Positions 23,171 through 45,180 of a DNA stretch of 64,000 nucleotides are shown piece by piece. The stretch spans positions 12,762-76,761 of the forward strand of contig JAGRNR010000004.1 of NCBI GenBank assembly GCA_020440645.1, written 5' to 3'. The notes below the pieces were generated by a model, which saw only the letters and a program-made list of their open reading frames with translations, had not been told where the DNA came from and did not search any database. Source of the stretch: a bacterium. Lineage in GTDB: Bacteria > 4484-113 > JAFGCY01. Position numbers and translations under genes: made by a program. Numbering within the stretch: position 1 is the stretch's first letter; each line of letters opens with the position of its first letter.

Positions 23171-23233
23171 TGCGAATGGCCTCCCGGACCGTATCCGCGC
23201 ATTATACCCGGATTTAACTTTTTGGGCTGATCC

Positions 23234-24679
23234 CTATCTTGCAGGCTGTACTACGGGCAAAGCAGTCCAGTCCCAGGCGTCAATGGCATCAACAACGTCC
23301 AAATCGTAAGAAGCCAGTTCCTTGCCAGTGTAGAGTTGTCTTTGCTGTTGCCAGATTTCCTCGAAAACCCTGAACCCCATGCCACCGGATATCCACAGGT
23401 CCAGTGTCTCGCGAGCGCCTGGCTGGTTCTCTGCCATCCGGATTGCGGCAGGGAGCAGTTTTTTCTGCGCTACGTACTCCTCATATCGCTGTGGATTGTT
23501 CAATGCCGTGAATATCTCCTCCCTTTCCATCTGCAGCACTCTCAATTCATCAATCAGGAAGGGCAGGTCCTTGCGTTGTTGTACGTCAAGGTAATCCGGG
23601 TAATCTCTGGTGCAGGCCTTCAAGGTGCCTATGATAACCTGCAGCAGGAATGTGTCACCAGAATCCCTCATCCGATAGTAGGCACGGTTATGCAGCATTG
23701 CTCTGTGCAGTGTCTGCAATTCGTTGAATCGCCCCTCCTCCAGCAGCTTCAGCGAAACCCAGTAGGCAAGCTGGAGGCTGGCAGAGGCGGATATCCAGTT
23801 GCGAGAGTTGTAATCGGTAAGGTTTGGTCCGATCAGCATGCCTGCCAGGATCTCATTCCCGGGAACCTGTCCATCCTTGAAACTGTCAATCACGGAACTA
23901 ACCGGGAATTCCGGAATCGGGCCATTGAATGGCGCAGCCAGCGACTGGTCCAGGTCTTCCAGCGCCTCAGCTTCGTTGCCATTGCTGAACTGCAGGAGCG
24001 CACGCTCCAGGTACGCCCAGGCGTGTTCAGGATACAGTGAAGTGTATACGTCGAGGAGTAGCAGCAGCTCCGCGCTGGATTCCCCTTCCCACATGAACTG
24101 CGGCAAGCCGCTGTCCCGCGGAGTTCTAATGCGATTCTTGAGTTGCTTTTCCGAAATCAAGCGCATCATAAGCGCAGGGCTGCGGATGCCACGCTCATAA
24201 GCTTCCTCAAGAATTGCCATCCCGTCCACGATGTCCATGAATACTCCACTGCTGCCAGCCTGCCTGCAGTAGATACGCAGCTCCCACCAGCGCGGGTCAT
24301 CCCCGAACTCATCCTCCCAATCCAGCAGCACGCTATCAGGCAACAGGGCTGGCTCCGCGATGGCGGCATCATTGTGCGAAATGTAGACAAATGCTTCTGG
24401 CGCAGAGTATTCCCAGATTGCGGCTGCATAGCTGTCAAACAGAGCATCGCCGCTTGGCTTTGGTCTCGCGCCCTCAATGCGCGTCTGCACATCCTCGCGA
24501 TGTAGGAGCTGATGGGCAGTTTCCTCGAAGTCAGAGTCGTCATCCTGTGCGTTGGCAGGATAGGCGTTGAAAGTCACCGCCAACAGCAGCATTGCTGCCA
24601 TTACCCAAGGCAGTTTCATTGAGTGTCCTCCCCGACTATCGTAGGACATGGAAACAAGGTTGCAGGTTGCCGGTTGCAC
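23234..24679 (-). CDS. Secreted protein of unknown function (probable start 24619 after GGAGGA SD; MKLPWVMAAMLLLAVTFNAYPANA)
   Basis: Signal peptide; moderate-GC gene; conserved upstream motif at 24662-24678. Confidence 0.5.
   Translation of the reverse strand: MQPATCNLVSMSYDSRGGHSMKLPWVMAAMLLLAVTFNAYPANAQDDDSDFEETAHQLLHREDVQTRIEGARPKPSGDALFDSYAAAIWEYSAPEAFVYISHNDAAIAEPALLPDSVLLDWEDEFGDDPRWWELRIYCRQAGSSGVFMDIVDGMAILEEAYERGIRSPALMMRLISEKQLKNRIRTPRDSGLPQFMWEGESSAELLLLLDVYTSLYPEHAWAYLERALLQFSNGNEAEALEDLDQSLAAPFNGPIPEFPVSSVIDSFKDGQVPGNEILAGMLIGPNLTDYNSRNWISASASLQLAYWVSLKLLEEGRFNELQTLHRAMLHNRAYYRMRDSGDTFLLQVIIGTLKACTRDYPDYLDVQQRKDLPFLIDELRVLQMEREEIFTALNNPQRYEEYVAQKKLLPAAIRMAENQPGARETLDLWISGGMGFRVFEEIWQQQRQLYTGKELASYDLDVVDAIDAWDWTALPVVQPAR
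24662..24678 (-). promoter_or_regulatory. Second copy of upstream motif GCAGGTTGCCGGTTGCA (coding strand TGCAACCGGCAACCTGCAACC), ~45-60 nt upstream of the predicted ATG 24619
   Basis: 16/17 identity with 4119-4135, same orientation relative to the downstream gene. Confidence 0.35.
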
Positions 24680-24808
24680 GTTTCAGGGAAGTCAATGAGT
24701 CAAGAAGTCAACGAGTTAATGGCCTCAATGCTTCTAAGCATTGATGTGACTTATTGCCTGATTGACTCAGTGACTCCGGTCACAATGATTACGGCGAGCT
24801 GAATCCTC

Positions 24809-26968
24809 ATGCTCCCGCTTAACAAACGTCCACCATTCGCCGGGTATCATCCTACTGTGATGGAGTATCCCGAGCAGGTCCACCGCAAGCTGCGCCAGTT
24901 GCCGGATTCACCGGGCGTGTACCAGATGAAGGACGCGCGCGGCAAGATCCTGTACATCGGCAAGGCGCTTGTGTTGAAGAACCGAGTCTCGAGCTACTTC
25001 ACCGCCGCTGCCGAGAGCGACCCGCGCATCGCCCAGCTGGTTACGGAGATCCGCGATCTGGACTGGATCGTGGTGCCGACCGAGATCGACGCGCTGATGC
25101 TGGAAAGCTCGCTGATCCGCACCTTCAAGCCGCGCTACAACACGATGCTCAAGGACGACAAGTCCTACCCCTACGTCAAGATCAGCACCAATGAGAAGTT
25201 CCCGCGCGTGATGCTGACGCGGCAGTACCTTGACGACGGCGCGCGCTACTGGGGGCCGATGACGAGCGTCGGGCAGGTCAGGAGCGCGATGAAGTTCATC
25301 GCCGGAATGTTCCAGCTCAGGACCTGCAAGCTGGAGATTGACGACGAGCACAAGTACCACAAGCCCTGCCTGGACTTCCACCTGAAGCTGTGCAGCGCGC
25401 CCTGTGTCGGCTACATCGACGAGAAGAAGTACGGCGCGCTGGTGCAGTACGCCGTGGACTTCTTCAATGGCAACTACGGCACCGTGATTGACGAGATGAA
25501 GAAGCGGATGTGGGAGGCGGCGGAGAACCGCGACTATGAAAGTGCGGCACGCTACCGCGACCTGATCGAGGCCGCCGAGAAGAGCTTCCAGCGCACGCGC
25601 ATGATCGGGCGGCCGGGAGAGAACTACGACGTGCTCGGGCTGGCGCGCAGCCGGGACAAGGCCTGCGTGCTGGTGATGCCGGTACGTGACGGGCGCCTGA
25701 TCGGCGACCGCAAGTTCGTGCTGGACCATCGCCTGGAGGACAGCGCTGACAACGACGTGCTATCCGGCTTCCTCAAGCTGCACTATGCCAACCCGCAGAA
25801 CGTGCCGCCTGAGCTTGTGCTGCCGCACCAGCCGCAGGATGCGGAGGTGATCCGCCAGTGGCTCGGCCGGCTGCGCTTCCAGGCGCTGGAGCACCGCGGT
25901 GAGGCTGAGGAGGTGGCGATCCTCGCCGGCAGCTTCGCGGAGAACGGCGAGGCCGGTGTGGTGCCGGAGCTGGTCTCCGGAGATGGCAATGTGGCGATCA
26001 CCGACACCGCCGGGATGCCGATCCGCCGCGTGCTGCTGACGACGCCGAAGCGCGGCAAGAAGCTGGAGCTCCTGGGGATTGCCAATCGCAATGCGCAGGA
26101 GCGCCTGCACACGGTGCTCTTGGGGGGTGGCGGAGACTACGTCGTCACGCCGGGGCAGAAGGCGCTCAAGGAGCACCTCTCGCTGCCGGACTACCCGCGC
26201 CGCATCGAGGGCTACGACATTGCCAACCTGCAGGGCCAGCAGGCCACGGGGGCGATGGTGGTGTTCACCGGCGGGCGCAAGGATGCCCCGGAGTACCGCC
26301 TGTTCAACATCCGCCTGAAGCAGACCCCGGATGACTACGCTATGCTGATGGAGACCCTGCACCGGCGGCTCAGGCGCCTGCTGACCGACCCGAAATGGAA
26401 GAAGCAGGTGGACCTCGTGATGATCGACGGCGGCAAGGGGCAGCTCAACAGCGTGCGCCGCGTGTTCGACCAGATGATGGACGACCCGGACCTGTCAACG
26501 GAGCAGCGCGAGGTGCTCGACGGCATCAAGCTGTGCAGCCTCGCCAAGCAGGAGGAGCTGGTCTACCACTACAACGACATTGACCAGCTGGAGGAGATCC
26601 GCCTGCCGCATACCGACCCCGGCCTGCGGCTGCTGGTGGAGCTGCGCAATGAGGCGCACCGCTTTGGCAACTCGCAGCACTCGAGGATGAAGGAGAAGGC
26701 GATGCGCATCTCGGTCCTGGACACCGTGCCGGGCCTGGGGGAGACGCGCAAGCGGGAGCTTTTGCGGCACTTCGGCAGCGTCAAGCGCCTGCGGGAAGCC
26801 ACGGTGGAGGAGCTGCTGGAGGTGAAGGGTATCGGCCGAGCATTCGCCGAGCACATCCGCAAGTACCTCGAGCGTGACAACGAGCTGGAGGAGGCCAAGA
26901 TGGAAAAAAAGCGCGAGATGCGCATCCGCCGCATCCGCCGCGAAGGCGACCCGGACCGGCCTGGGTAG
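24809..26968 (+). CDS. uvrC: Excinuclease ABC subunit C (UvrC) with short basic C-terminal tail
   Basis: GIY-YIG motif GVYQMKDARGKILYIGKA...YF, UvrBC-interaction and RNaseH-like regions, C-terminal HhH (LLRHFGSVKRLREATVEELLEVKGIGRAFAEHI). Likely start at MEYPEQV (24860). Tail MEKKREMRIRRIRREGDPDRPG. Confidence 0.9.
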   Translation: MLPLNKRPPFAGYHPTVMEYPEQVHRKLRQLPDSPGVYQMKDARGKILYIGKALVLKNRVSSYFTAAAESDPRIAQLVTEIRDLDWIVVPTEIDALMLESSLIRTFKPRYNTMLKDDKSYPYVKISTNEKFPRVMLTRQYLDDGARYWGPMTSVGQVRSAMKFIAGMFQLRTCKLEIDDEHKYHKPCLDFHLKLCSAPCVGYIDEKKYGALVQYAVDFFNGNYGTVIDEMKKRMWEAAENRDYESAARYRDLIEAAEKSFQRTRMIGRPGENYDVLGLARSRDKACVLVMPVRDGRLIGDRKFVLDHRLEDSADNDVLSGFLKLHYANPQNVPPELVLPHQPQDAEVIRQWLGRLRFQALEHRGEAEEVAILAGSFAENGEAGVVPELVSGDGNVAITDTAGMPIRRVLLTTPKRGKKLELLGIANRNAQERLHTVLLGGGGDYVVTPGQKALKEHLSLPDYPRRIEGYDIANLQGQQATGAMVVFTGGRKDAPEYRLFNIRLKQTPDDYAMLMETLHRRLRRLLTDPKWKKQVDLVMIDGGKGQLNSVRRVFDQMMDDPDLSTEQREVLDGIKLCSLAKQEELVYHYNDIDQLEEIRLPHTDPGLRLLVELRNEAHRFGNSQHSRMKEKAMRISVLDTVPGLGETRKRELLRHFGSVKRLREATVEELLEVKGIGRAFAEHIRKYLERDNELEEAKMEKKREMRIRRIRREGDPDRPG

Positions 26969-26977
26969 GAAGCAGTA

Positions 26978-29794
26978 TCATTGTTTTTCCAAGGATCGTT
27001 CAAATCTCATTTCTGCCAATCTAAGGTCCTTCAAGATACACATTTCTTCATGCGGTATCAACTTCTGATTTATTTCTAGAATTGCAGCGATAATCTCTTT
27101 TCCGCAATTCTGAAGATCCTGTATTGAATTCGAGCTATCACAACGACAGATTTCTAATAGAATTTCATTTGCGGAATCGTTATTGAATCCTCCGCTGATT
27201 AATTTGGTACATGTATCAAGTCTGAGCAATTGATATATTGCATAATCCATGTTGTCAGTTATTGAAGTTTCACTTATTAATTTATGCATTTCTTCCAAAT
27301 CCAGATAAACGTCCTGAATAATGTTGCAACGACACAAATACATTGCAGCACTTATTTTATCCTCCCATTGCCTGTCTTCTAATACAGCATACGCAACATC
27401 CCGGAAATAATCTGTGGCTTTACTGATTTTATTATTTTCAAAATACATAGAACCTATAGCCGCTTTTGCAAAGAGCTCTGCATGCTTATTGTATACATCT
27501 TCAGAAAGTCTGGCTGAAGTTTGGAGATATGATATACCGCTCAGAAAATCACTTTCACTTATGAAAATTCCAAGATTATTCAATGCAAAGATTTGTCCAA
27601 ATAGGTCATCATTTCCCCTGGCATGTTCAATAGCCTTCTCCAGTTTGTCAAGAACACCATCTTGGTTTCCGCACTTCAACCGACAGATAGCATGATGTGT
27701 CAGAAGCTCTGTTAAGCCACTGTATTCATTAAGTTCATTACATTGATCGAGGATCTCACAATACATCTTTTCAGCCTCGCGAACATCTCCCATTCGAGAT
27801 GTAAGTACAGCAATTCTTGTTTTGATCCTCAACAAAAGATCCTTGTCGATTGGATTGCAAGCATCAAGTGCTATTTTGAGCAATTCCATAGCTTCTGGCA
27901 GTTCTGAAGGTTTTATGTACTTCGATGCAAAGTGAAGCAAGAACTTGGGTGAACGTGGCGGTGATTCTGGCGATAGTTTCCTGGCTTCATTCCAAAAAAC
28001 TGTGGCGGTCTGCGAAATTTTTTCGAACTCCTCATAGTTCCTTTGATGTGAGTATCGAGACATCAAACTACAAGCAATCCAGTGGGCTGCATGATAATTC
28101 CCATCTAGTGCATATAGCTCCATTGCCTTCAAAGACATCATATCAGCATAGGAACTCGACGCTTGAATTGGTAGAGTCTCATAATATGCAAGAAAACTAT
28201 TGATCATGACTGATTGCCATTTCTCATCTGACACGGTCCCCGCCCGCTTCTCCGCATGCTCGCTCAGCCACTTCAGGGCATTGCGGCGTTCGTCGAACGG
28301 CCATTCATCGAGTTGGCCACCCTCGAACTGCAGGCGCAGCACGTTACCGAGGTATTCCTCCACCAATGTGTGTTCCTCGTTGTCAGCGCCGAAGCTCTGC
28401 CGCACACGCTCGAAGATCAGGCGGTGGCGGAAGCTGTACAGATGCGAAGTCGCAAGCTTCTGCTCACGGGTTACGAGCTGGTGGATGCGTCCGAGGTCGC
28501 CCAGCATCACACTGGCACGGCCGCGCTGCATCCCAAGATGTTCCGCGGTGTATGTGATCAGTTCATCGAGGAACTTCTGCCCCATCACACTGCCCCACTG
28601 CAGCACCCGCAGGCGGTCGCCATCCAGCAGGCGCAGGCGGCGGTCGATCACCTCGCCCACGCGCAGCGGGATCCGTGACAGCTCGGCGTCACCAACTTTC
28701 AGTGCACCGTTGCCATCCAGCCAGCCCTCCTCCTCGACGAGCTTTGCATAGTTGACGGCGTAGAACGGATGCTCGCCGGCGCGCTGCACGATCCGCGAGA
28801 TCGTCTCATCGCTGGCACCGGGCAGGTGGTCTGAGATGATCCCCGCCATTGATTCGCGGGTGAGGTCCTGTCCCAGCTCGATGCGAGTCACGCACTGGCC
28901 ATCGGCATGCCGCAGCAGTCCGTGCTCCAGTTCCGCAGCCGTGCTTGACAACCTGCCGGGGTCATCCTGGCGGGCCGCCAGCTGGGCTGCCAGCTCATTG
29001 GAACGGATCGTGGAGATGCACAGAAGTTTCCAGCCGCGCCGCAGGCCGAGGTCCAGCATGCGCTGCAGGAAGCCGAGGCTGCGTGCATCGGCCCATTGCG
29101 CGTCGTCAACCACAAGCACCAGCGGCACTGTGGGCAGCTTACTGTCCGCCTCGTCGTTGAGGGTTGCCAGCATGCGGCTGATCATGTCCTCGGGCTTCTG
29201 GCCGTTGTAGATGTCCGTCGCGCCGGCCACGCTCGTGACGTCGCGCGCGCTCTTCAGCTCGCGCTGCCGGCGGCCCAGTTGCCAGATCGAGCGCAGCGCG
29301 GCATATACATCAATCAGCGGTCCGGCCGGGGAGAAACCGAGCCCGGCCTCCATCACGGAGCGGCCGGTCTCCAGCCAGGCATCCTTCACGAGCTTGGCGC
29401 GCATGATGCCGTCCAGATGCAGCACGAGCTGGTCCATTGCGTCGAGGAAGGGGGAGAATCCCTCCCTGTCATGTTCATTGCCGGGAGGGCATGTGATTGC
29501 CCACCACATGAAGGGCAGTGCGCCACGTGGCGGCCGGCCCTTCGGGAACTCGGGCCGCAGGCTGTCAATCGTGTTCGCTCCGAGGGCGAGGTCGGGCCAG
29601 TAGCCCTCACGCCCCATGTCCAGCTGCGGGTCGTAACGGGTTGTCAGGATCTGGTAGAGTTCCTGCACCAGCCGCGTCTTACCCATGCCGGGCTCACCAG
29701 ACACCCGGACATACTGGACGTTGCCCTGGCGTGATTTCTCCCACGCGGAAACCAGCAGCTCAAGCTCAGCATCTCGGCCCCGTAACGGATACAT
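26978..29794 (-). CDS. STAND-type NTPase (N-terminal AAA_16-like ATPase) with C-terminal TPR-like sensor repeats; C-terminal ~530 aa encoded by AT-rich DNA
   Basis: N-terminus LRGRDAELELLVSAWEKSRQGNVQYVRVSGEPGMGKTRLVQELYQIL (Walker A GEPGMGKT); Walker B-like LVLVVDDAQWAD; no HTH at C-terminus. Coordinates 26978-~28200 are ~35-40% GC, 28200-29794 ~65% GC. Confidence 0.75.
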   Translation of the reverse strand: MYPLRGRDAELELLVSAWEKSRQGNVQYVRVSGEPGMGKTRLVQELYQILTTRYDPQLDMGREGYWPDLALGANTIDSLRPEFPKGRPPRGALPFMWWAITCPPGNEHDREGFSPFLDAMDQLVLHLDGIMRAKLVKDAWLETGRSVMEAGLGFSPAGPLIDVYAALRSIWQLGRRQRELKSARDVTSVAGATDIYNGQKPEDMISRMLATLNDEADSKLPTVPLVLVVDDAQWADARSLGFLQRMLDLGLRRGWKLLCISTIRSNELAAQLAARQDDPGRLSSTAAELEHGLLRHADGQCVTRIELGQDLTRESMAGIISDHLPGASDETISRIVQRAGEHPFYAVNYAKLVEEEGWLDGNGALKVGDAELSRIPLRVGEVIDRRLRLLDGDRLRVLQWGSVMGQKFLDELITYTAEHLGMQRGRASVMLGDLGRIHQLVTREQKLATSHLYSFRHRLIFERVRQSFGADNEEHTLVEEYLGNVLRLQFEGGQLDEWPFDERRNALKWLSEHAEKRAGTVSDEKWQSVMINSFLAYYETLPIQASSSYADMMSLKAMELYALDGNYHAAHWIACSLMSRYSHQRNYEEFEKISQTATVFWNEARKLSPESPPRSPKFLLHFASKYIKPSELPEAMELLKIALDACNPIDKDLLLRIKTRIAVLTSRMGDVREAEKMYCEILDQCNELNEYSGLTELLTHHAICRLKCGNQDGVLDKLEKAIEHARGNDDLFGQIFALNNLGIFISESDFLSGISYLQTSARLSEDVYNKHAELFAKAAIGSMYFENNKISKATDYFRDVAYAVLEDRQWEDKISAAMYLCRCNIIQDVYLDLEEMHKLISETSITDNMDYAIYQLLRLDTCTKLISGGFNNDSANEILLEICRCDSSNSIQDLQNCGKEIIAAILEINQKLIPHEEMCILKDLRLAEMRFERSLEKQ

Positions 29795-29840
29795 CCGTCA
29801 ATTATATGTAATCACCAACGCAGGAACCGGGAACCGGCAC

Positions 29841-30690
29841 TCAGTACCCCCGGATGTACCGCAGTTCCCCGGGGATTGCCCCCTCGATGCTCGTGATCAC
29901 CACCGGCAGTCCGCCCTGCAGGGCCATTGCGTTTGCCATGCCATGCTCAACGTCCATGACCGGCAGCCAGCTGGCGAACCATTCCTGCACGCCGGAGCGT
30001 GCCGGCAGCCAGGCCGGTCCGACGAGGAACAGTTCATTCGCATCCTCGCTGTAGCAGCAGATCTGCGGCAGTCCGCCATACTCCAGCACGGTGATGTAGC
30101 TGCCATACTGCAGGCTGAAACCATGGCTGACAATGCTCCAGTCCGTCGGCCCTGCCGGATCGTCTACCTTTGCGTAGCCATAGACGACATCGTCCCGCTT
30201 GGCTGCGAAAGCGGGCCGGCCGTCAATCACGGCACCGCGCATGAAGTTCATGAAGCCATCCGTTTCGCTGATGCGGTGGTGGCTGAAGTCAGCAACGGAA
30301 GCCGGGTTGCCATCGGTGCGATGTTGAATGCCATCTGCGCGCCGTCGAAGGAGAAGAACGCTGGCCTGCCGTCGTAGTCGAACAGCGAATAGCCGTGACC
30401 GTTGGGCTGCTCGGTGGCGCTTGCCACAGTCCAGTCCGAAGTTGCGGCCGGTATGGACTTTGTGCTGCGCAGCAGGAAACTGTCGTTGTCATCCAGCTCA
30501 GTCTCATTGCCGCGCGCGGATTGTCAGCAGCAGGCGGAAAAGCTGGCAGTGCAGTGCCAGGCAGCAGTGGTACAGTCTCTACGGACGGTCCGGCAGCATT
30601 GCCGTTGTCACCAGCCGGTGTGGTTCGGGCAGGCTGTTATGACCAGGAAACAAGCAGTGCAAGCAGCATCAGTAACGGTAATCGCAGCAT
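29841..30690 (-). pseudogene. Decayed gene for a secreted repeat protein (signal peptide MLRLPLLMLLALLVSWS followed by in-frame TAA and at least two frameshifts)
   Basis: Hand translation: ATG at 30690 gives a signal peptide followed directly by TAA; protein-like segments continue in two other frames (…SLFDYDGRPAFFSFDGAQMAFNIAP… then …FMRGAVIDGRPAFAAKRDDVVYGYAKVDD…GELRYIRGY*), sharing a DGRPAF repeat. Could alternatively reflect sequencing/assembly errors. Confidence 0.4.
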
Positions 30691-30757
30691 GGATGCACCT
30701 CCGCAAAGGCTGCACCAATACTAACACGCTGCCTGTTTGCGTGGCCAGGCCCGCAGC

Positions 30758-33586
30758 TCAGGTTCCTTCGGCATTCCCCTGCTGTTCAGCAATCCGCCGC
30801 TGCAGGTCCTGCACTTCGCCCGGCAGTTCCTGCAGCAGCACGGCTGTCGGGTCCTGCATCCGCTCACGGCACTCTTCAAGCAGCCCGGAGCAGAAGCTGA
30901 GGATGTCCGGATCGCCAGCATCATTCCTTCCAATGAACCGCTCCAGCTGCGATGCCTGCTGCGCGTCATGTGAGCCGCCATGCAGCAGCAGCGAAGCCTC
31001 GATCCTGGCGATATCCATCTTGGCGAGGCTGCCTGGGTTGTCAACATCCAGACCGCGGAACCAGCCCGCCAGCTCTACGGCTCGGGAGTAGTTGCCAATG
31101 CTGAGCTGTGCGCGCATCAGGGTGATGAAGAAGCGCATCAGTCGCAGGTGCGCATTGCGCTCGATGGCAATTGTGTATGCCGTCTCCAGCCGCGAGCAGG
31201 CCTGTTCGTAGTCACCCTCTGAGAAGTCAATCGATCCGAGCGAGCAGAGGCTGAACAGCCTTGAGCTTTCATCTCCGACTTCCTCCGCCATGTGCAGGGC
31301 CCGTTGCGTGTACTCATATGCCTGCGGGATGTCATCGTGCTTGGAGTAATAGACGCCGATGTTTGACGTGATCTGCGTAGCGTGCAGCTGGTCGCCGCTG
31401 GCCCTCGCGCAGTCCAGTGCCTGCAGCAGCAGGCTGATGCCCTGCTCATCGCGCTTCTGCAGCAGGTTGCACAGCGCCAGGTACTGCAGCAGCGATGTCC
31501 GGCTGATGTTCGTGCGCTCGCTGAAACCCTCGCTGTCCAGCCGCAGGAGGATCTCCTCAGCCTCCTGCAAGCGCCCTAGCTGCATCAGATAGCTTGCCAG
31601 CAGCAGGTCGCACTTGGCTAGCTGCGGCTCGTCCTCCGTTTCCACGGCGAGCTCGATCGCCTGTTCCGCCAGTTCCACCGCACGTGGCAGGTCGCCGTCC
31701 AGCAGTGCCACGGCCGAGCGTGAGATCTGCAGGTATGTCGACTGTTCCGGCAGGCTGGGGTCCTGCTCCCGGGCCAGTTGCCAGAGTGCTTCAGCCTGTG
31801 ATTCAAGCGTATCCAGTTGGTCAGTATGCTGGCGCTGGCGCTGGATCTTCACGGATTCAGCTGCCAGCTCATGCGCCTTCCTGTACAGCCCGGCTTCCTT
31901 CATCAGCCGGGTCGCCCTGTCCGCAAGGTCCATACGTTCGCGATTGCCGATTGGAATGGTGCTGAAGTAGAGCAGGAAACTCTCTATCTCAGTACGTTTC
32001 CAGCCTGCAGTGTCCTGCTCGCGGCGGCGCTTCTGCCTGTCCGCCGCGTAGTCGCTGAGCCAGCGCAGGGCGCTGCGCTGCTCGTCCTGCGGCAGCTCCC
32101 CCAGCAGCTTCTCCTCCATGTACTCCCGCAGCAGCTCGCCGAGGCAGTCCCGTACAAGTCCGTGCTCCGGGTTGTCATCTCCGAAGCCCTCCGCCACCCG
32201 CTCGAACAGCAGGCGATGGGTGAAGCCATACAACGACCAGTCCAGCTGCCGCTGCTGTCGGTTCACCAGCTGGTGCACTTCCGTCAATTCAGTCAGCCAG
32301 GCGCTGGCCCGGATCGGCTTGATGTCCATCTCACGCGATACGAGGGCGATCAGCTCATCGAGGAAGCGCTGGCCCTGCACGCTGGCCCATTCCAGCACCC
32401 GGCGACGGTTGCCATCCAGCAGGCGCAGGCGGCGGTCGATCAGCTCCCGGATGCCCGCCGGAATGCGGGACAGTTCATCGCTGCCAACCGTCAGTGCCCC
32501 GTTGCTGTCAACCCAGCCTTCCTCCCGGACCAGCAGCGCATAGTTCACGGCATAGAAGGGATGGTTGCCGGCGCGGCTTGCGATGGCCTGAATTGTCTCG
32601 TCAGACGCATGCGGGATGTGGTCGGAGATGATGCTGTTGATGGCTGCCTGGTCCAGGTCCTGCGTGAGGTCAATCCGGCGCACGTTGGCTTCACCGGTAT
32701 GCCGGATCAAGCCCGTCTCCAGCTCGGCGGCCGTGGCAGCCAGCCGGTTCTCCCCGTCCTCTGCTGCCCGCAGCTGGCTGGCCAGTTCGTTGGAGCGGAT
32801 CGTGCTGATGCACAACAGGCTCCACTCCCGCTCCACCCCGAGTTCCAGCATCCGCTGCACGAAGCCGAGGCTGCGCGCGTCCGCCCACTGCGCATCGTCC
32901 AGCACCAGCACCAGCGGGACGGTCGGCAGCTTGTTGTCCGCCGGGTCATTCAGCGTGGACAGCAGGCGGCTGATCATGTCTTCGGGCTTCTGCCCATGGT
33001 AGATGTCCTTCCCGCCTGAAAGTTCCGTGATGCTGCGGCCTCCCTTCAGTTCACGCTGGCGCTTGCCGAGTTGCCAGACCGAGCGAAGCGCGGCGTACAC
33101 GTCCACCAGCGGACCGACGGGTGTGAAGCCCAGCCCGGCCTCGAGGAAACTGCGTCCGGCATCCAACCAGGCATCCTTCACAAGCTTGGCACGCATGATG
33201 CCGTCGAGGTGCAGTGAAAGCTGCTCCATCGCATCAAGGAAGGGGGCGAAACTGTCCGGCACATGCTCATTGCCCTGGCGGCAGACCACCGCCCACCACA
33301 TGAATGGCAATGGGATCTTCGGCGGACCTTCCACGGGGAAGCGCGGCCGCACGCTATCGAGCACACGTGCGCCGAGGAACAGGTCGGGCCAGTAGCCGTT
33401 GCCGCTTTCAACTGCCGCCGGGTCGTACTGCGTTGTCAGGATGCGGTACAGCTCCTGCACCAGCCGGGTTTTGCCCAGCCCAGGCTCGCCCGCAATCCGC
33501 ACGTAACGCACCTGGCCCTGGCGTGCCTCTTCCCATGCCTCAACCAGTAGGGCGAGCTCGGCGTCCCGTCCGTGCAGTGCGTGCAT
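30758..33586 (-). CDS. STAND-type NTPase (AAA_16-like) with TPR-like repeats; paralog of 26978-29794
   Basis: MHALHGRDAELALLVEAWEEARQGQVRYVRIAGEPGLGKTRLVQELYRIL; LVLVLDDAQWAD; alignable with the neighbour over the N-terminal ~530 aa; uniformly GC-rich; C-terminus lacks HTH. Confidence 0.75.
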   Translation of the reverse strand: MHALHGRDAELALLVEAWEEARQGQVRYVRIAGEPGLGKTRLVQELYRILTTQYDPAAVESGNGYWPDLFLGARVLDSVRPRFPVEGPPKIPLPFMWWAVVCRQGNEHVPDSFAPFLDAMEQLSLHLDGIMRAKLVKDAWLDAGRSFLEAGLGFTPVGPLVDVYAALRSVWQLGKRQRELKGGRSITELSGGKDIYHGQKPEDMISRLLSTLNDPADNKLPTVPLVLVLDDAQWADARSLGFVQRMLELGVEREWSLLCISTIRSNELASQLRAAEDGENRLAATAAELETGLIRHTGEANVRRIDLTQDLDQAAINSIISDHIPHASDETIQAIASRAGNHPFYAVNYALLVREEGWVDSNGALTVGSDELSRIPAGIRELIDRRLRLLDGNRRRVLEWASVQGQRFLDELIALVSREMDIKPIRASAWLTELTEVHQLVNRQQRQLDWSLYGFTHRLLFERVAEGFGDDNPEHGLVRDCLGELLREYMEEKLLGELPQDEQRSALRWLSDYAADRQKRRREQDTAGWKRTEIESFLLYFSTIPIGNRERMDLADRATRLMKEAGLYRKAHELAAESVKIQRQRQHTDQLDTLESQAEALWQLAREQDPSLPEQSTYLQISRSAVALLDGDLPRAVELAEQAIELAVETEDEPQLAKCDLLLASYLMQLGRLQEAEEILLRLDSEGFSERTNISRTSLLQYLALCNLLQKRDEQGISLLLQALDCARASGDQLHATQITSNIGVYYSKHDDIPQAYEYTQRALHMAEEVGDESSRLFSLCSLGSIDFSEGDYEQACSRLETAYTIAIERNAHLRLMRFFITLMRAQLSIGNYSRAVELAGWFRGLDVDNPGSLAKMDIARIEASLLLHGGSHDAQQASQLERFIGRNDAGDPDILSFCSGLLEECRERMQDPTAVLLQELPGEVQDLQRRIAEQQGNAEGT

Positions 33587-33710
33587 CCGTCGATTATATC
33601 CAGCAACCGGAAAGCGTCGAGACCTTGTGGAGGAAGTGAACTTTGCTGGAATTTCAGACGAAGGCTAAATGCTTTTCCGCTGCGAACGATTATTGATATA
33701 GGGAGTCTTA

Positions 33711-33998: not shown

Positions 33999-34856
33999 TC
34001 ACTTCGTGACTGTCTTCCCGTCTGCATACATTTCGTCAAGCATCGCCAGCAGCAGCTCATGGCGGCGGTTGGTGAACTGCCTGGGGTCGTTTGTCAGCAT
34101 GATGTTGATCAGCAGAAGGGGCATGGCGGCGATTGGCAGTATGGCCAGCAGCAGGCCACTCGCCATCGCGGTGCCGCGCAGGACGGAAAGCACGCGCTCC
34201 GCCATCAACCGCCGGCGGACGGCGGAACCGCCCATCCCGAGGAACAGCTCAAGATTGTCAGCCATCAGCCGGCCATTCACAAGCTCCGTTTCTGTATGCT
34301 GGCCGCGTGCCAGGGGAGGCAGGCGCACCAGGTCGTATTCCGAAACCGGGCTGCCGTATACATTTGAGACAAGCTCCAGGATATCCAGTTCATGCAGCCG
34401 CTTGCCGAGTTGCTTCCTCAGGCCTGTTGAGGATTGGGCTCCAAGCGTGCATCCAACCGTAACTGTGGCCATCACTGCGATGGCAATGATTTCGGGTACG
34501 CTCCAGCCAACCTGCCCAAATGAGGGAAACAGGCTGTAACTGCCAATGGCGAAGAACAACAGCAGGACGACGATTCCAATCAGGAAAATGAACGAGATGG
34601 ACATGAAACTCCTGCCCACCCCGGCGAACAGTTGTTCGACGGAGCCATGTCCGCGTGTTGAGAGATACCAGTCCAGCACTTCCAGCAACTGCCAGTCGTC
34701 AGGTTCGTCCTCGTTGGTGACGACCGGTGACCACAGCTCCCAAAGAATCCTGCGCAGCTGCTTCGGGATGCGCCGGCCCTCGTGGAAGCGCTCCTTATTG
34801 GTCATGCCCCCGAGCTGCTGCCGCGTGATGTCCCCACTTGATTCCTGTTGGTCCAT
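33999..34856 (-). CDS. Integral membrane protein of unknown function
   Basis: Cytoplasmic N-terminal region then multiple TM helices (SISFIFLIGIVVLLLFFAIGSYSLF; IIAIAVMATVTVGCTLGA; LLLAILPIAAMPLLLINIML). Divergent from the ArsR-family gene. Confidence 0.5.
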   Translation of the reverse strand: MDQQESSGDITRQQLGGMTNKERFHEGRRIPKQLRRILWELWSPVVTNEDEPDDWQLLEVLDWYLSTRGHGSVEQLFAGVGRSFMSISFIFLIGIVVLLLFFAIGSYSLFPSFGQVGWSVPEIIAIAVMATVTVGCTLGAQSSTGLRKQLGKRLHELDILELVSNVYGSPVSEYDLVRLPPLARGQHTETELVNGRLMADNLELFLGMGGSAVRRRLMAERVLSVLRGTAMASGLLLAILPIAAMPLLLINIMLTNDPRQFTNRRHELLLAMLDEMYADGKTVTK

Positions 34857-35014: not shown

Positions 35015-35617
35015 GTGAAGAAGGAACAGGTAGTCGGGAGCCTCGGTGAGGCAAGGGTACTGCTCAAGCCGCTGCGCATGGACATCATGCACCTGCTGGC
35101 GGAGCCGCACTCCTGCACCGAGATTGCAGGCAACCTGGGGCTGACGCCGCAGAAGGTGCACTACCACGTCAAGGTGCTGGAGAAGGCCGGGTTCGTGGAG
35201 CAGGTGGATGAGCGGCAGGCCCGTGGCCTGAAGGAAGCGATCTACCGGGTCACCGCCCAGAGCGTGTCCTTCGCGCCGGCGCTCGTGGCAGCCCTCGGAG
35301 GAAGGGAGAAGCTCAGGGACAACCTGAGCGTCGGATACATGATGGGTCTCGCGGATGAACTGGCACGTGATTCAAATCGCCTCGCGATGATGCGGGACGA
35401 GACCCCGACGCTCAACCTGAGTGCCCAGATCGAGCTGGCTGATGCCTCGCAGCGAGGTGAGTTCATGGCGGAATTGCAGCAGCTGATCCAGTTCCTCGCG
35501 GAGAAGTACGGAGCTGACGACGGAGTGCCGCGCGACGGTGCGGACATCTTCAAGCTGGTGCTGGCCTGCTACCGCAATCCGGACAGCACCGACGAGGGCG
35601 GGCCCTCGCCCAACTAA
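35015..35617 (+). CDS. ArsR/SmtB-family winged-helix transcriptional regulator with C-terminal extension
   Basis: HTH region LKPLRMDIMHLLAEPHSCTEIAGNLGLTPQKVHYHVKVLEKAGFV; typically found next to AHSA1/SRPBCC genes. Confidence 0.7.
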   Translation: MKKEQVVGSLGEARVLLKPLRMDIMHLLAEPHSCTEIAGNLGLTPQKVHYHVKVLEKAGFVEQVDERQARGLKEAIYRVTAQSVSFAPALVAALGGREKLRDNLSVGYMMGLADELARDSNRLAMMRDETPTLNLSAQIELADASQRGEFMAELQQLIQFLAEKYGADDGVPRDGADIFKLVLACYRNPDSTDEGGPSPN

Positions 35618-35678
35618 GCGGCCCGCAACCCGTGACTGCGATGCAGCTTCGGCTGCCGCTGGCGCGCGGATACAGGAA

Positions 35679-36197
35679 ATGAACGAGAGGTGTGACATGC
35701 AGGGATTCAAGCGGTGCGCCGGAATGCTGCGTACGAACATGGTTGTCAGGGCAGGCAAGCCACAGGTATATGCCGCGCTGACAGAACCAGCCAGGCTCAG
35801 GCAGTGGCTGTGCGAGGGAGCGGATGTGGAGCTCGATCGCGGGATCTACCGCCTGTGGGGGCGCGGCCTGGCGGGCAGCCCCGGTCAGTGGGCTGATGCC
35901 GTGGGACTCGTTGCCAGCCGCGCGCCTGAGCTGCTGGTACTGGGCCAGCGGTACGCAGGGGTGGAAGTTGAGCTCGAGTTCATCCTCAGCTCGACGATCG
36001 GCGGACTGAACATCCAGTTCAGCATGCGCGGGCTGGAAGAACTGCCGGATGCTGAACGAATCCGCCTGGCGGAAAGCTGGAGTGCGGCGCTGCTGAACCT
36101 GAGGGGCCAGCTCGAGAATGCCCGGCCGCTAGCGATGCCCCCGCTGGTGTCGGCGGCACTTGAGCAGGGAGGACGGACCCTGCTACGAAGCGTATAG
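35679..36197 (+). CDS. SRPBCC-superfamily protein (AHSA1/Activator-of-Hsp90-ATPase homolog-like, single domain)
   Basis: VVRAGKPQVYAALTEPARLRQWL…; start chosen at internal ATG (35679); upstream part of the ORF-track entry looks non-coding. Confidence 0.55.
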   Translation: MNERCDMQGFKRCAGMLRTNMVVRAGKPQVYAALTEPARLRQWLCEGADVELDRGIYRLWGRGLAGSPGQWADAVGLVASRAPELLVLGQRYAGVEVELEFILSSTIGGLNIQFSMRGLEELPDAERIRLAESWSAALLNLRGQLENARPLAMPPLVSAALEQGGRTLLRSV

Positions 36198-36258
36198 TTG
36201 CTGCAGGGGCGGCAAAGTGAAAAGCGCCGGGAACGCCGGCGGGCAATACTGACAACAT

Positions 36259-37170
36259 TTGGGAGAAGACATGAGCGGAATGGAACAGGAACGGTTAGAG
36301 GTCAGGCTGGCAATCGATATCAGGTCCAGCCGGGAGAAGGTCTGGCGGGCGCTGACGGACTGGCAGCAGCTAAACGGCTGGCTCAGTGACAAGGCGGACG
36401 TGGACCTGCCGGCGGGCCGCTTCAAGCTGTGTGGCAACAGGCTGCCGGACAGTCCATGTGATGGCACTGACAAGTTCAGCCTGGCCGGCTATGAGGATCG
36501 CAGCAGGCTGGAGCTCAACTGGCAGTTCCGTGCTGGCAACACCGGGCTGTCTTTCCAGCTCAGTGGCGACGGTGATGCCTGCCGCGTCGAGCTGGCACAT
36601 ACGGATGTGCCTCGCCGGGGCGAGACCGAAGTGACGATGATCGAATACTGGCAGTGGGTGCTGCTGGCCCTGCGAGGCTATTGCGAGACCGGCAGCCGGC
36701 CGGGCATCTTCGAGTTCGGGGCTGAGCAGCGGACTGGGCAGCTTGAGGTCGGGATTGACATTGCCGCGGAGCGCGAGACCGTCTACAACATCCTTGCCAG
36801 CAGTGATGGCCTGAAGGGCATCTTCGGAGGCGAGGGGCCGGAAGTTGAGCTCAGGGATGGTGGCAAGTACAGCTACGGCTGGGGACCGAACGAGGGCCCG
36901 ACGAAGGTGATCAGCTTCAAGCCCAATGAACTGATCCACACCGACTGGTACCACGGCACTGATCCCGAAACCTTCATCACCTGGAAGCTCAGCGGCAGCG
37001 GGGGGCGCACCCGGCTGACGCTGGTGCACAGCGGCTTCCCGAACGAGGCGCAGAAGCACGACTACGAAGCCGGCTGGTTCCACTTCCTCGTCGAGCTGCG
37101 TGAGCTTGCCGAAGGCAACAGCGATCGCAAGGTGGAAGTACTGGCCAGGCCGGACGGCTGGGCCATCTGA
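36259..37170 (+). CDS. Tandem-AHSA1/SRPBCC-domain protein
   Basis: Two repeats: VRLAIDIRSSREKVWRALTDWQQLNGWL… and EVGIDIAAERETVYNILASSDGLKGIFG…; each ~140 aa. Confidence 0.6.
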   Translation: MGEDMSGMEQERLEVRLAIDIRSSREKVWRALTDWQQLNGWLSDKADVDLPAGRFKLCGNRLPDSPCDGTDKFSLAGYEDRSRLELNWQFRAGNTGLSFQLSGDGDACRVELAHTDVPRRGETEVTMIEYWQWVLLALRGYCETGSRPGIFEFGAEQRTGQLEVGIDIAAERETVYNILASSDGLKGIFGGEGPEVELRDGGKYSYGWGPNEGPTKVISFKPNELIHTDWYHGTDPETFITWKLSGSGGRTRLTLVHSGFPNEAQKHDYEAGWFHFLVELRELAEGNSDRKVEVLARPDGWAI

Positions 37171-37202
37171 CCAACACATGAAACTGACAACGGAGCACTG
37201 AA

Positions 37203-38069
37203 ATGAGCAAGACTATCAACACGACCGTGAGGATCAACCGGCCGGCAGCGGAGATCTTCCGCCTGCTGACAACGACCAGTGAACTGGAGCAGTGGTTCGC
37301 TGAGCATGCCAAGGTGGACCTGGCAGGGGGGAGCTACGGATTCTGGGGACGTTACACCCCGGGGCTGCCATCCGAAGCACAGCAGCAGCTGAAGGGATTT
37401 CAGCAGGACCGCAGCCTTAGCTATGTCTGGCTCGTGAATGGCAACGATACTGAAGTGGAATTCACGCTGGATCCCGATGGCGATTCCACTGTGGTGAAGC
37501 TTGTGACCCATGGCAACCGCGAGTGGGAGGAGGGCAGCGGATCGATGACGGACTTCTGGGTGGCCGCACTGGAGAACCTGCGCCTGCATGCCCATGGGCA
37601 TGCGCAGATCCTCAGGTGTGACTACAACCATGTGCGCGGCCCGGTGGACTGCGCAGTGGAAGTTGCCAGCGGGGCCTCGGCAGTCTGGGAAGGCCTCACA
37701 GATCCCGGGCAGCTGGACCGCTTCTTCGCCAGCGGGGCACGTGTCGTGCTGGAGCCGGGCGGAGAGTTCAGTTACGGCTGGGAGAACGGCGGGCCCCAGA
37801 GCGTTGTCAGCCTCGAACCCGGCCGCAGCCTCGAGGTGCGCTGGCTGTGGGGTACTGAGGACGACACTGTGGTGCGCTGGGAGCTCAAGGAAAGCAGTGG
37901 ACGGACGCGGATCAGCCTGCTTCACAGCGGCTTCGGCGAGCGCAAGACCCAGGACTACCACGCCGGCTGGACGAGCTTCCTCGTCTCGCTGAAGGCAATG
38001 CTCGAGCTGGGCAGCGACTGGAGCAAGGTGCAGACCGACGGCTATGTGCCGGAAGGCGCAACTGCCTGA
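37203..38069 (+). CDS. Tandem-AHSA1/SRPBCC-domain protein (paralog)
   Basis: TTVRINRPAAEIFRLLTTTSELEQWF… and DCAVEVASGASAVWEGLTDPGQLDRFF…; the C-terminal half is similar to the previous gene (HSGFPNEAQKHDYEAGWFHFLVELRELAE vs HSGFGERKTQDYHAGWTSFLVSLKAMLE). Confidence 0.6.
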   Translation: MSKTINTTVRINRPAAEIFRLLTTTSELEQWFAEHAKVDLAGGSYGFWGRYTPGLPSEAQQQLKGFQQDRSLSYVWLVNGNDTEVEFTLDPDGDSTVVKLVTHGNREWEEGSGSMTDFWVAALENLRLHAHGHAQILRCDYNHVRGPVDCAVEVASGASAVWEGLTDPGQLDRFFASGARVVLEPGGEFSYGWENGGPQSVVSLEPGRSLEVRWLWGTEDDTVVRWELKESSGRTRISLLHSGFGERKTQDYHAGWTSFLVSLKAMLELGSDWSKVQTDGYVPEGATA

Positions 38070-38165
38070 TACTTGGACAATGCAGCGGCTGGCTTGTGGA
38101 GATCACGGGCCAGCCGCTATCCTCATACTGCTTCGGGGGAAGCCAGGAATAACGGGAGGCGGGAA

Positions 38166-38954: not shown

Positions 38955-39011
38955 TATCATTTCGCCTTCGCGCCACAAGCGCGGGATGGTTCATAAAAGG
39001 AGTAATCAGTC

Positions 39012-41285: not shown

Positions 41286-41312
41286 TGCCCGTTGAATGCA
41301 AGGACGGACCAT

Positions 41313-45177: not shown

Positions 45178-45180
45178 TTG

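What the first reader, a model, noticed from the sequence alone, without database searches (positions are those of the whole stretch)
26978..33586. Tandem paralogous STAND NTPases (AAA_16 + TPR) with no effector or DNA-binding domain
Two ~940-aa proteins share a nearly identical N-terminal NTPase module (…RGRDAEL(E/A)LLV…GEPG(M/L)GKTRLVQELY…; LVLV(V/L)DDAQWAD) followed by TPR-like repeats, arranged head-to-tail on the minus strand around a decayed secreted-protein gene. NTPase-plus-sensor-repeat proteins of this kind act as signal-transduction switches and, in several recently described cases, as NLR-like anti-phage sensors. The lack of an HTH distinguishes them from MalT/LuxR-type regulators.
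Basis: partly seen in the sequence, partly recalled or inferred. Interest (0 to 1): 0.55.

Follow-up and report, generated by a model that had tools for sequence, protein, structure and literature searches.

The report
Two effector-less STAND ATPases, one chimeric
Two neighbouring genes encode switch-type ATPases (a MalT-like nucleotide-binding core plus TPR repeats, with no output domain); this is an ordinary though uncharacterised protein family, and the one unusual point is that the second copy is strain-specific and carries a foreign AT-rich sensor half.

Summary
Window 26978-29794(-) and 30758-33586(-) encode 938- and 942-aa paralogues made of AAA_16 plus TPR. No HTH, kinase, cyclase or other effector domain was detected. 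"Nearly identical" overstates the N-terminal similarity, which is about 65% amino-acid identity over residues 1-520; the C-terminal parts are about 20% identical.

No conserved neighbour gene was found across 76 loci. There is no match to Avs or bNACHT models, no phage or plasmid relative, and no defence gene in this window.

New points:
- The upstream copy (STAND2) is the resident gene, syntenic in relatives at about 95% DNA identity and under purifying selection.
- The downstream copy (STAND1) and the broken ORF lie on a 3.8-kb segment that those relatives lack.
- The TPR half of STAND1 has GC3 0.34 against 0.79 for its N-terminal half, and no homologue was found. This is a sensor-module swap from an AT-rich homologue.

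Best reading: ligand-gated oligomerising switches whose output acts through other proteins. An anti-phage role is neither supported nor excluded.

The parts
30758..33586 (-). STAND2: the resident 942-aa effector-less STAND NTPase (nucleotide-binding core, arm, TPR sensor).
32186..33586 (-). STAND2 nucleotide-binding core (residues 1 to about 467). Walker A GEPGLGKT is at 33467-33490 and Walker B LVLVLDD at 32894-32914. Also present are a GxP motif (G341-x-P343) and a winged-helix His438.
   Evidence: Invariant or near-invariant columns in the family alignments. The model shows strand and helix order typical of NBD-HD-WHD. 359 residues superpose on the MalT core.
32921..33421 (-). Subfamily-specific insertion between Walker A and Walker B (residues about 56-222). 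It comprises a GYWPD loop, a PFMWW beta strand, an invariant His126, a long helical hairpin and a disordered linker.
   Evidence: Y65, W66, P81, P94, W97 and H126 are invariant in 51 family members. The YW motif is present in 133 of 138 representatives. The hairpin is modelled with low confidence.
30758..31942 (-). STAND2 TPR-like sensor (residues about 549-942).
   Evidence: TPR_12 and TPR_MalT by Pfam. Helical hairpins in the model. Structural hits to LGN, Rap and PH0952 TPR domains.
28232..29794 (-). STAND1 core-plus-arm half (codons 1-521). It is GC-rich (GC3 0.79) and about 65% identical in amino acids to STAND2. Walker A is at 29675-29698 and Walker B at 29102-29122.
   Evidence: dN 0.30 and dS 0.96 against STAND2.
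26978..28231 (-). STAND1 sensor half (codons 522-938). It is AT-rich (GC 34-42%, GC3 0.34), TPR-like, and has no detectable homologue.
   Evidence: Composition. Only self-hits among 5.8 billion proteins. Residues 547-800 are modelled as helical hairpins with pLDDT 83-95. The probability of 407 stop-free codons at this composition is 8e-14. The junction still encodes the shared motif W..I.SFL.Y..T.PI, now in AT-rich codons.
29795..30757 (-). Spacer holding a disrupted ORF. A signal-peptide-like start with a premature stop lies at 30637-30690. Open stretches follow in three frames. The annotated 136-aa ORF is at 29841-30251.
   Evidence: Three-frame translation. No homologue and no Pfam family. 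The 136-aa ORF is a singleton cluster.
26969..30812 (.). Strain-specific segment of 3,844 bp. It covers the last 18 codons of STAND2, the disrupted ORF and the whole of STAND1. In relatives at about 95-96% DNA identity, 51 bp stand in its place.
   Evidence: blastn against L002, L003, L005 and L010. The last 18 codons of STAND2 are saturated (dS 0.67) against 0.18-0.24 for the rest of the gene. No flanking repeats were found.
33593..33598 (-). TATAAT box 6 nt upstream of the STAND2 ATG, with a TCGACG -35-like hexamer at 33615-33620. This suggests a leaderless transcript.
   Evidence: Consensus scan, 10 of 12 matches. Sequence. This is a consensus match only and is not evidence of function.
29801..29806 (-). 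TATAAT box 6 nt upstream of the STAND1 ATG. The same ATATAAT-YGACGG-ATG arrangement precedes STAND2.
   Evidence: Sequences. Homology to the orthologue's upstream region reaches 29807.

Best explanation
Both genes encode members of a widespread, uncharacterised subfamily of STAND NTPases. The subfamily has a MalT-like nucleotide-binding oligomerisation core that starts at residue about 4, a subfamily-specific insertion in the NTPase domain, an arm, and a TPR sensor. It has no fused output domain.

By analogy with MalT, PH0952 and AfsR (inferred, not shown here), each protein would rest as an ADP-bound closed monomer held shut by sensor-core contacts. A ligand bound by the TPR solenoid would open it, ATP would bind, and the protein would oligomerise. 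Because no effector is fused and no neighbour gene is conserved, the output must act through other proteins, by recruiting or sequestering partners encoded elsewhere.

STAND2 is the resident, vertically inherited gene. STAND1 is an accessory paralogue carried with a broken ORF on a 3.8-kb segment that was probably exchanged between strains by homologous recombination. Its sensor half was replaced, at the arm/TPR boundary, by the matching part of a homologue from an unsampled AT-rich genome. The two proteins would then share one switch chassis but read different ligands, and they might co-oligomerise. This last point is inference.
For: Shown:
- Paralogy and domain content.
- Conserved Walker A and B, GxP and winged-helix His.
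- Subfamily size and architecture. phmmer of residues 1-535 against 1.84 billion representatives gives 618 hits at E<=1e-10. 126 of 138 members have 25 or fewer residues before the NTPase. Pfam on 47 members reports only AAA_16/AAA_22 and helical-repeat or other non-enzymatic families among the 25 families listed.
- The nearest sequence relatives outside the subfamily are AAA_16 modules fused to cyclase, Ser/Thr kinase, SARP or LuxR domains, which are signal-transduction proteins.
- No recurrent neighbour among 846 ORFs in 76 loci.
- STAND2 is syntenic and under purifying selection: dN/dS 0.067 for the core and 0.36 for the sensor.
- The extra segment is absent from relatives.
- Sharp GC3 break, 0.79 to 0.34, at codon about 522, which is the arm/TPR boundary in the model.
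- The AT-rich part is a stop-free ORF, confidently modelled as TPR-like.
- The substitution spectrum is saturated with no deaminase-like bias.
- A separate Logan assembly spans the junction by 420 bp. Read-derived fragments from another run, SRR5690606, cover residues 524-653 and 834-938.
Against: - No biochemical or genetic data exist for any member, so ligand, partners and output are unknown.
- The mechanism rests wholly on analogy with distant STANDs. The N-terminal profile has no significant sequence match to any solved STAND.
- The structural assignment rests on AF2 models with pLDDT 77-78 and pTM 0.6.
- Effector-less STANDs could equally be immune sensors with unlinked effectors.
- A few family loci in Thiohalocapsa lie near a type IIG restriction-modification gene and other PADLOC-matching genes.
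- STAND1 has no orthologue to test for selection, so it could be a young, non-functional chimera.
- Co-oligomerisation of the two paralogues is speculation.
Confidence: 0.6

Rival explanations
1. The two proteins are NLR-like anti-phage sensors (Avs-type). The TPR domains recognise phage proteins, the protein oligomerises, and an unlinked or unrecognised effector kills or arrests the cell. The strain-specific second copy with a swapped sensor reflects arms-race diversification.
For: - The architecture, a STAND core plus a large TPR sensor, is the one used by most Avs families (PMC13581612, section 5, read).
- STAND1 is accessory, lies on a strain-variable segment, and has a horizontally acquired sensor.
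- The sensor evolves about 5 times faster than the core between strains.
- Read-derived fragments show allelic variation in the sensor, 90-98% identity.
- Some Thiohalocapsa family loci lie near a type IIG restriction-modification gene, an RmrA/CapP-like gene and a RecD-like gene.
Against: - Neither criterion that Lee et al. 2026 use for defence-associated STAND clades is clearly met. First, no effector domain was found in the two proteins or among the 25 Pfam families listed for 47 relatives. Second, no defence gene lies within about 10 kb in the window, and PADLOC hits among 280 neighbours are only scattered, each family matching 3 proteins or fewer per batch.
- No PADLOC Avs or bNACHT model matches.
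- STAND2 is a syntenic chromosomal gene between uvrC and housekeeping genes in every relative.
- No relatives in phages, plasmids or IMG/VR.
- The nearest sequence relatives are regulator-type fusions.
Confidence: 0.13
2. Only STAND2 is functional. STAND1 is a recent recombination by-product, a chimeric gene on its way to decay like the broken ORF beside it, and has no role of its own.
For: - It lies on the same strain-specific segment as a frameshifted ORF.
- Its sensor half is an orphan with foreign codon usage that has not adjusted to the host genome.
- The last 140 residues are modelled with low confidence.
- No orthologue is available to show selection.
Against: - The ORF is intact over 938 codons. 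The probability of 407 stop-free codons in the AT-rich part is 8e-14.
- All catalytic motifs are intact.
- dN/dS against STAND2 over the core is about 0.3.
- The breakpoint falls exactly at a domain boundary and keeps the frame and the shared arm motif.
- It keeps the same promoter-like box as STAND2.
- The same allele was recovered in several assemblies and runs.
Confidence: 0.15
3. The AT-rich 3' half of STAND1 is a metagenome assembly chimera and does not exist in any cell.
For: - The source is a MEGAHIT-style metagenome contig.
- The GC change is abrupt, within about 10 codons.
- The AT-rich part has no homologue.
Against: - The reading frame continues for 407 codons and ends 10 bp from the uvrC stop.
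- Protein-level homology to STAND2 continues across the junction.
- A separate Logan assembly of run SRR6747764 is 100% identical from 20001 to 28648, which spans both the uvrC junction and the GC break.
- The exact protein is on 4 contigs in NCBI and ENA.
- A read-derived fragment from SRR5690606 starts at residue 524.
Confidence: 0.03

Closest known systems
MalT (E. coli maltose regulon activator) and the MalT-type STAND core
   Different: There is no C-terminal LuxR/GerE HTH. Sequence similarity to MalT is not detectable with a family profile. A roughly 100-residue insertion lies between Walker A and Walker B, which MalT lacks.
PH0952 of Pyrococcus horikoshii (STAND with TPR sensor, PDB 6mfv; PMC6468293)
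   Same: It is the best Foldseek match over the whole length: E 5e-12, 923 alignment columns. The domain order is the same: core, arm, TPR.
   Different: [quoted passage not shown] The proteins here start directly with the NTPase. Identity is 12%.
AAA_16 modules fused to adenylate/guanylate cyclase, PknK-type Ser/Thr kinase, SARP (AfsR-type) or LuxR domains
   Same: These are the nearest sequence relatives outside the subfamily. The best NCBIfam hit is the NTPase part of TOMM_kin_cyc, E 1e-17 and far below its cut-off. They also have C-terminal TPR sensors.
   Different: Those proteins carry an N-terminal or C-terminal output domain. The subfamily here has none: 126 of 138 members have 25 or fewer residues before the NTPase. 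It is also defined by the GYWPD/PxxWW insertion.
Avs (antiviral STAND) and bNACHT defence proteins
   Same: They share the general plan of a STAND NTPase plus a large, often TPR-like, fast-evolving sensor (PMC13581612).
   Different: No match to any PADLOC Avs or bNACHT model. No nuclease, SIR2, TIR or protease effector. No defence-island context in this window. No phage or plasmid relatives.

Membership tests
STAND NTPase superfamily | P-loop NTPase with Walker A (GxxxxGK[ST]) and Walker B (hhhhDD) | tested here: met
   GEPG(L/M)GKT at residues 33-40 and LVLV(L/V)DD at 225-231 in both proteins. G36, G38, K39 and D230/D231 are invariant in the family alignments. AAA_16 scores 56-67 bits against a cut-off of 32.6.
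STAND NTPase superfamily | Three-part core: nucleotide-binding domain, helical domain with GxP motif, and winged-helix domain with a conserved His | tested here: met
STAND NTPase superfamily | C-terminal repeat (sensor) domain after an arm | tested here: met
   TPR_12 and TPR_MalT hits. Helical hairpins run from about 549 to the C-terminus in both models. 30 of 47 relatives have TPR_12.
STAND NTPase superfamily | At least one effector domain at either end (usual but not obligatory; PMC6468293) | tested here: not met
   No Pfam, NCBIfam or PADLOC domain other than the NTPase and TPR. The NTPase begins at residue about 4 and the protein ends within the helical repeats.
STAND NTPase superfamily | ADP/ATP-dependent switch with ligand-induced oligomerisation | not testable with these tools
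   This needs biochemistry: nucleotide binding, SEC-MALS or cryo-EM.
MalT/LuxR-type STAND transcription regulators | C-terminal LuxR/GerE (or other) DNA-binding HTH | tested here: not met
   No GerE, HTH or Trans_reg_C hit at E<=1 in either protein. The only NCBIfam LuxR-family hit (AbsR2, E 0.002) covers residues 2-45, which is the NTPase start.
Avs / bNACHT antiviral STANDs | Match to the family's profile models (PADLOC-DB v2) | tested here: not met
   STAND1 has 0 hits. STAND2 hits only a generic 'TPR' model at E 2.7e-5.
Avs / bNACHT antiviral STANDs | Fused defence effector (nuclease, SIR2, TIR, protease and the like), criterion 1 of Lee et al. 2026 | tested here: not met
   None in the two proteins. 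None among the 25 Pfam families listed for the 47 relatives scanned. An N-terminal extension of more than 60 aa occurs in only 4 of 138 members.
Avs / bNACHT antiviral STANDs | Enrichment of known defence genes within 5 kb, criterion 2 of Lee et al. 2026 | tested here: inconclusive
   In the window there are no PADLOC hits in neighbours except an ArsR wHTH that matches Csa3. Across the family, 280 neighbour ORFs from 43 loci give only scattered hits, each PADLOC family matching 3 proteins or fewer per batch. Clear cases such as a type IIG restriction-modification gene are confined to Thiohalocapsa. No proper null model or whole-system caller was available.
Avs / bNACHT antiviral STANDs | Protection against phage on expression | not testable with these tools
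   This needs an experiment.
NLRs with N-terminal amyloid signalling motif plus adjacent effector (NWD2/HET-S-like, bacterial BASS) | Short N-terminal motif before the core, repeated in a neighbouring effector gene | tested here: not met
   Only 3-5 residues precede the conserved GR..EL start of the NTPase. No conserved neighbour gene was found.

The most novel reading that the evidence does not exclude
The GYWPD/PxxWW subfamily is an unrecognised class of bacterial NLR-like receptors. On this reading they signal without a fused effector, either through the conserved insertion in the NTPase domain or through unlinked partners. Their TPR sensors would be exchanged horizontally as modules, even between genomes of very different base composition. 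The strain-variable, sensor-swapped STAND1 would then be a snapshot of immune-type diversification.
Probability: 0.12. Interest if true: 0.6.

Novelty: new member of a known kind. Interest (0 to 1): 0.3.

Why it matters
Effector-less STAND ATPases are numerous: this subfamily alone has hundreds of 50%-identity clusters across at least eight phyla. Yet none of them has been studied, so how a STAND switch signals without a fused output domain is unanswered for this subfamily.

This locus offers a natural comparison. Two proteins share the same chassis but have unrelated sensors, one resident and one recently imported. That could guide experiments on ligand specificity and on whether sensor modules can be exchanged at the arm/TPR boundary.

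As a genome annotation matter the finding is ordinary. Both genes are correctly described as AAA_16/TPR STAND ATPases of unknown role. Nothing here supports calling them a defence system.

Tried and rejected
1. Hypermutation as the cause of the AT-rich half. The STAND2-to-STAND1 substitution spectrum in the C-terminal part has 317 transitions and 498 transversions, with C>A about equal to C>T, and nucleotide identity is 0.34. It is saturated with no deaminase-like bias, so this was rejected.
2. A mobile-element insertion. There are no terminal direct or inverted repeats beyond chance, no tRNA, and no integrase or transposase in the segment. Homologous recombination through flanking STAND2 and uvrC sequence fits better.
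3. A conserved partner or effector gene. I clustered 846 neighbour ORFs from 76 loci and found only ubiquitous two-component and ABC-ATPase clusters. The contexts of P0002, P0003 and P0004 share nothing.
4. The broken ORF as a lost effector. It has no homologue anywhere, including beside other family members.
5. The donor of the AT-rich sensor. Searches of 5.8 billion proteins, phages, plasmids and IMG/VR found nothing. A JGI metagenome scan with STAND1's N-terminal half found no close relative, and a scan with the N-terminal family profile found only distant AAA_16 relatives.
6. Sequence-level link to solved STANDs. The N-terminal profile against PDB sequences gives nothing significant; the best hit is RuvBL2 at E 0.005. 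The full-length profile is swamped by TPR hits.
7. Rfam found no RNA family in the window.
8. The afdb50 fold library was unavailable. The supplementary tables of Lee et al. are not held, so I could not look up the clade assignment.
9. The first genome scan, with a 51-sequence alignment, failed for lack of a conserved stretch. I repeated it with 10 close sequences.
Full report
OBSERVATION

They are clear paralogues, with BLASTP at 49% identity over 813 aa, E = 0 and only 8 gaps. Similarity is uneven: about 65% amino-acid identity over residues 1-520 and about 20% over 521-938.

Pfam finds AAA_16 above its cut-off in both proteins, plus TPR_12 and a weak TPR_MalT match. No HTH, GerE, kinase, cyclase or nuclease family appears even at E<=1. 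NCBIfam gives only partial matches far below cut-off, the best being the NTPase part of TOMM_kin_cyc. PADLOC gives nothing except a generic TPR model.

The 963-bp spacer begins with a signal-peptide-like ORF, MLRLPLLMLLALLVSWS, that runs into a stop codon. It continues with long open stretches in all three frames. No homologue of any piece was found in 5.8 billion proteins, in 85 fetched loci, or in Pfam. "Decayed secreted-protein gene" is a fair reading of the sequence but cannot be verified.

WHAT THE PROTEINS ARE

AlphaFold2 models of both proteins have pLDDT 78 and 77 and pTM 0.60 and 0.61. They show the same plan:
- a P-loop domain with five strands
- a helical bundle
- a winged helix (to about residue 467)
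- arm helices (to about 545)
- a solenoid of helical hairpins running to the C-terminus

Walker A, Walker B, the GxP motif (G341-x-P343) and a winged-helix histidine (H438) are conserved in the family alignments. These are STAND NTPases with a MalT-like core. The sequence is remote from every solved STAND, because a profile of the N-terminal half finds nothing significant in the PDB.

THE SUBFAMILY

A word-indexed search found only two full-length relatives (36% and 32% identity) before falling to AAA_16-only matches. Those weaker matches were cyclase, kinase, SARP and LuxR fusion proteins.

An exhaustive phmmer search of residues 1-535 against 1.84 billion representatives showed a much larger group. 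There were 9,595 hits at E<=1e-3, 618 at E<=1e-10 and 26 at E<=1e-30.

The group has a signature that generic AAA_16 lacks. After the Walker A helix comes a loop with invariant Y65-W66-P, then a strand P94-x-x-W97-W, then invariant H126. A long helical hairpin and a disordered linker follow before Walker B. The YW motif is present in 133 of 138 representatives.

In 126 of those 138, the NTPase starts within 25 residues of the N-terminus. Pfam on 47 full-length members found AAA_16 or AAA_22 in all and TPR families in most. The 25 families listed contain only helical-repeat or other non-enzymatic domains besides these, with no enzymatic or DNA-binding domain. A few members replace TPR with DUF3320 repeats. 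Lack of an effector is therefore a trait of the subfamily and not a truncation peculiar to this locus.

A scan of GTDB species genomes found 76 loci. They come from Planctomycetota, Acidobacteriota, Deinococcota, Proteobacteria, Chloroflexota, Armatimonadota, Bacillota and Bacteroidota.

CONTEXT

The window is ordinary chromosome. It carries a DEAD-box helicase, two prolyl oligopeptidases, an aspartase/fumarase, PKD lipoproteins, uvrC (convergent, ending 10 bp from STAND1), an ArsR-AHSA1-glyoxalase cluster, pseudopilins, a giant PKD protein and a secretin. No neighbour matches a PADLOC model, apart from the ArsR winged helix hitting Csa3.

Across the family, I called 846 ORFs in the 76 loci and clustered them. 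The only recurrent neighbours were two-component proteins (11 loci) and ABC ATPases (8 loci), both of which are ubiquitous.

PADLOC on 280 ORFs within 5 kb of the family gene in 43 loci gave scattered hits. No PADLOC family matched more than 3 proteins per batch. The clear cases lie in Thiohalocapsa: a type IIG restriction-modification gene, an RmrA/CapP-like gene and a RecD-like gene.

I could not compute a proper enrichment statistic, so the genomic-context criterion of Lee et al. 2026 remains inconclusive. Their effector criterion is not met. There are no relatives in phage genomes, plasmids or IMG/VR.

Two family genes within 10 kb of each other occur in 4 of the other loci (L020, L033, L063, L067). 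Paired paralogues therefore recur but are not the rule.

THE LOCUS IS A STRAIN POLYMORPHISM

Relatives at 95-96% DNA identity have a single 942-aa STAND. These include the complete genome CP060262.1, labelled "Planctomycetales bacterium HK-STAS-UBP7_A-1". Their STAND is 93-94% identical to STAND2, and its stop codon overlaps the uvrC stop.

Window 26969-30812 (3,844 bp) is replaced in those relatives by 51 bp. The segment covers the last 18 codons of STAND2, the broken ORF and all of STAND1.

The last 18 codons of STAND2 are saturated against the orthologue (dS 0.67, dN 0.74), while the rest of the gene has dS about 0.2. This marks a recombination breakpoint. No terminal repeats or mobility genes are present. 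The simplest account is exchange between related strains by homologous recombination through STAND2 and uvrC.

STAND2 is under purifying selection. dN/dS is 0.067 for core plus arm and 0.36 for the sensor, against 0.048 for uvrC.

STAND1 IS A COMPOSITIONAL CHIMERA

GC falls from 60-67% to 34-42% inside the ORF. GC3 is 0.79 for codons 1-531 and 0.34 for codons 532-938, with the break at codon about 522. In the model this is the end of the arm, just before the first TPR helix. It is the only such AT-rich stretch in the 64-kb window.

The AT-rich part is real coding sequence:
- 407 stop-free codons have probability 8e-14 at that composition.
- Residues 547-800 are modelled as TPR-like hairpins with pLDDT 83-95.

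It has no detectable homologue other than itself. Just after the break it still encodes the motif W..I.SFL.Y..T.PI that STAND2 also has, now written in AT-rich codons. The donor was therefore a homologue from an AT-rich genome that has not been sampled.

Hypermutation is excluded, because the substitution spectrum is saturated and unbiased.

An assembly artefact is unlikely for three reasons:
- A Logan assembly of SRR6747764 is identical from 20001 to 28648 and spans the break.
- The exact protein is on four contigs.
- Read-derived fragments from SRR5690606 cover residues 524-653 (128 of 130 identical) and 834-938 (95 of 105 identical).

The GC-rich half of STAND1 differs from STAND2 by dN 0.30 and dS 0.96. 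This is an old duplication within the lineage, not a recent tandem copy.

Both genes keep the same upstream element, ATATAAT-YGACGG-ATG. This hints at separate, possibly leaderless, transcripts, but it is only a consensus match.

MECHANISM (inferred)

I propose the following by analogy with MalT, PH0952 and AfsR. Each protein rests as an ADP-bound closed monomer. Ligand binding in the TPR solenoid releases autoinhibition. ATP binding then drives oligomerisation.

With no fused effector and no conserved neighbour gene, the output must act through other proteins, or else through the conserved insertion in the NTPase domain. The two paralogues share a chassis and differ in their sensors, so they would read different ligands. 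Co-oligomerisation is possible but untested.

The nearest sequence relatives are regulator-type fusions, and STAND2 sits in a stable housekeeping context. For these reasons I favour a signalling or regulatory role over immunity. The strain-variable, sensor-swapped STAND1 keeps the immune reading alive at about 0.13.

VERDICT

Its anti-phage suggestion is not supported by any test I could run, though it is not excluded either.

The proteins are new members of a known kind: STAND NTPases with a MalT-like core and a TPR sensor, in an effector-less and uncharacterised subfamily. The sensor-module swap across a 45-point GC3 gap, on a strain-specific segment, is a neat evolutionary detail but not a new kind of system. 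Interest is 0.3.

Noticed in passing
window 33593-33598 and 29801-29806 (minus strand): Both STAND genes are preceded by the same ATATAAT-YGACGG-ATG element. The TATAAT box lies only 6 nt from the start codon, which would give leaderless or near-leaderless mRNAs. STAND2 also has a TCGACG -35-like hexamer 16 nt upstream.
   Followed up: partly
window 26968-26978; L002 14096-14099: In relatives the STAND stop codon overlaps the convergent uvrC stop codon by 3 nt. In this window STAND1 ends 10 bp from the uvrC stop. The convergent genes share essentially no intergenic space and no terminator-like hairpin lies between them.
   Followed up: partly
window 49459-59982 (+), and 54784-59988 (-): A 3,507-aa ORF whose only Pfam hits are PKD domains. 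A 1,734-aa ORF lies antisense within it and is probably a high-GC artefact.
   Followed up: partly
window 1902-4067 (-) and 4223-6322 (-): Two adjacent prolyl oligopeptidase (Peptidase_S9) paralogues in tandem on the minus strand.
   Followed up: no
window 35015-39941 (+): An ArsR-type HTH regulator is followed by three AHSA1/SRPBCC-domain genes and two glyoxalase-like genes. The whole cluster is conserved in the related strains (L001, L002, L004).
   Followed up: no
window 33999-34856 (-): A 285-aa protein with no Pfam, NCBIfam or PADLOC match lies immediately upstream of STAND2 on the same strand. It is conserved at over 90% identity in the related strains, but was not seen next to other family members.
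   Followed up: partly
L033 8318-13357 and 17068-20652; L027 16634-17914; L043 4494-9230 and 15009-16988 (Thiohalocapsa): In Thiohalocapsa genomes, members of this STAND subfamily lie within a few kb of several PADLOC-matching genes. These are a type IIG restriction-modification gene (PADLOC E = 0), an RmrA/CapP-like gene, a kinase-containing giant protein and a RecD-like helicase. This is the only lineage where the context looks like a defence island.
   Followed up: partly
proteins P0012, P0013, P0016: Some subfamily members carry DUF3320 repeats after the nucleotide-binding core in place of TPR repeats. The same chassis is therefore combined with a different C-terminal module.
   Followed up: no
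STAND2 residues 213-261 (window about 32804-32950): The best, though non-significant, sequence match of the N-terminal profile in the PDB is the Walker B region of RuvB-like 2. That is another AAA+ protein with a large domain inserted between Walker A and Walker B.
   Followed up: no
window 41292-49330 and 60142-63021: Several genes with prepilin-type N-terminal methylation motifs (N_methyl) and a secretin gene, which suggests a type II secretion or type IV pilus-like cluster around the giant PKD protein.
   Followed up: no
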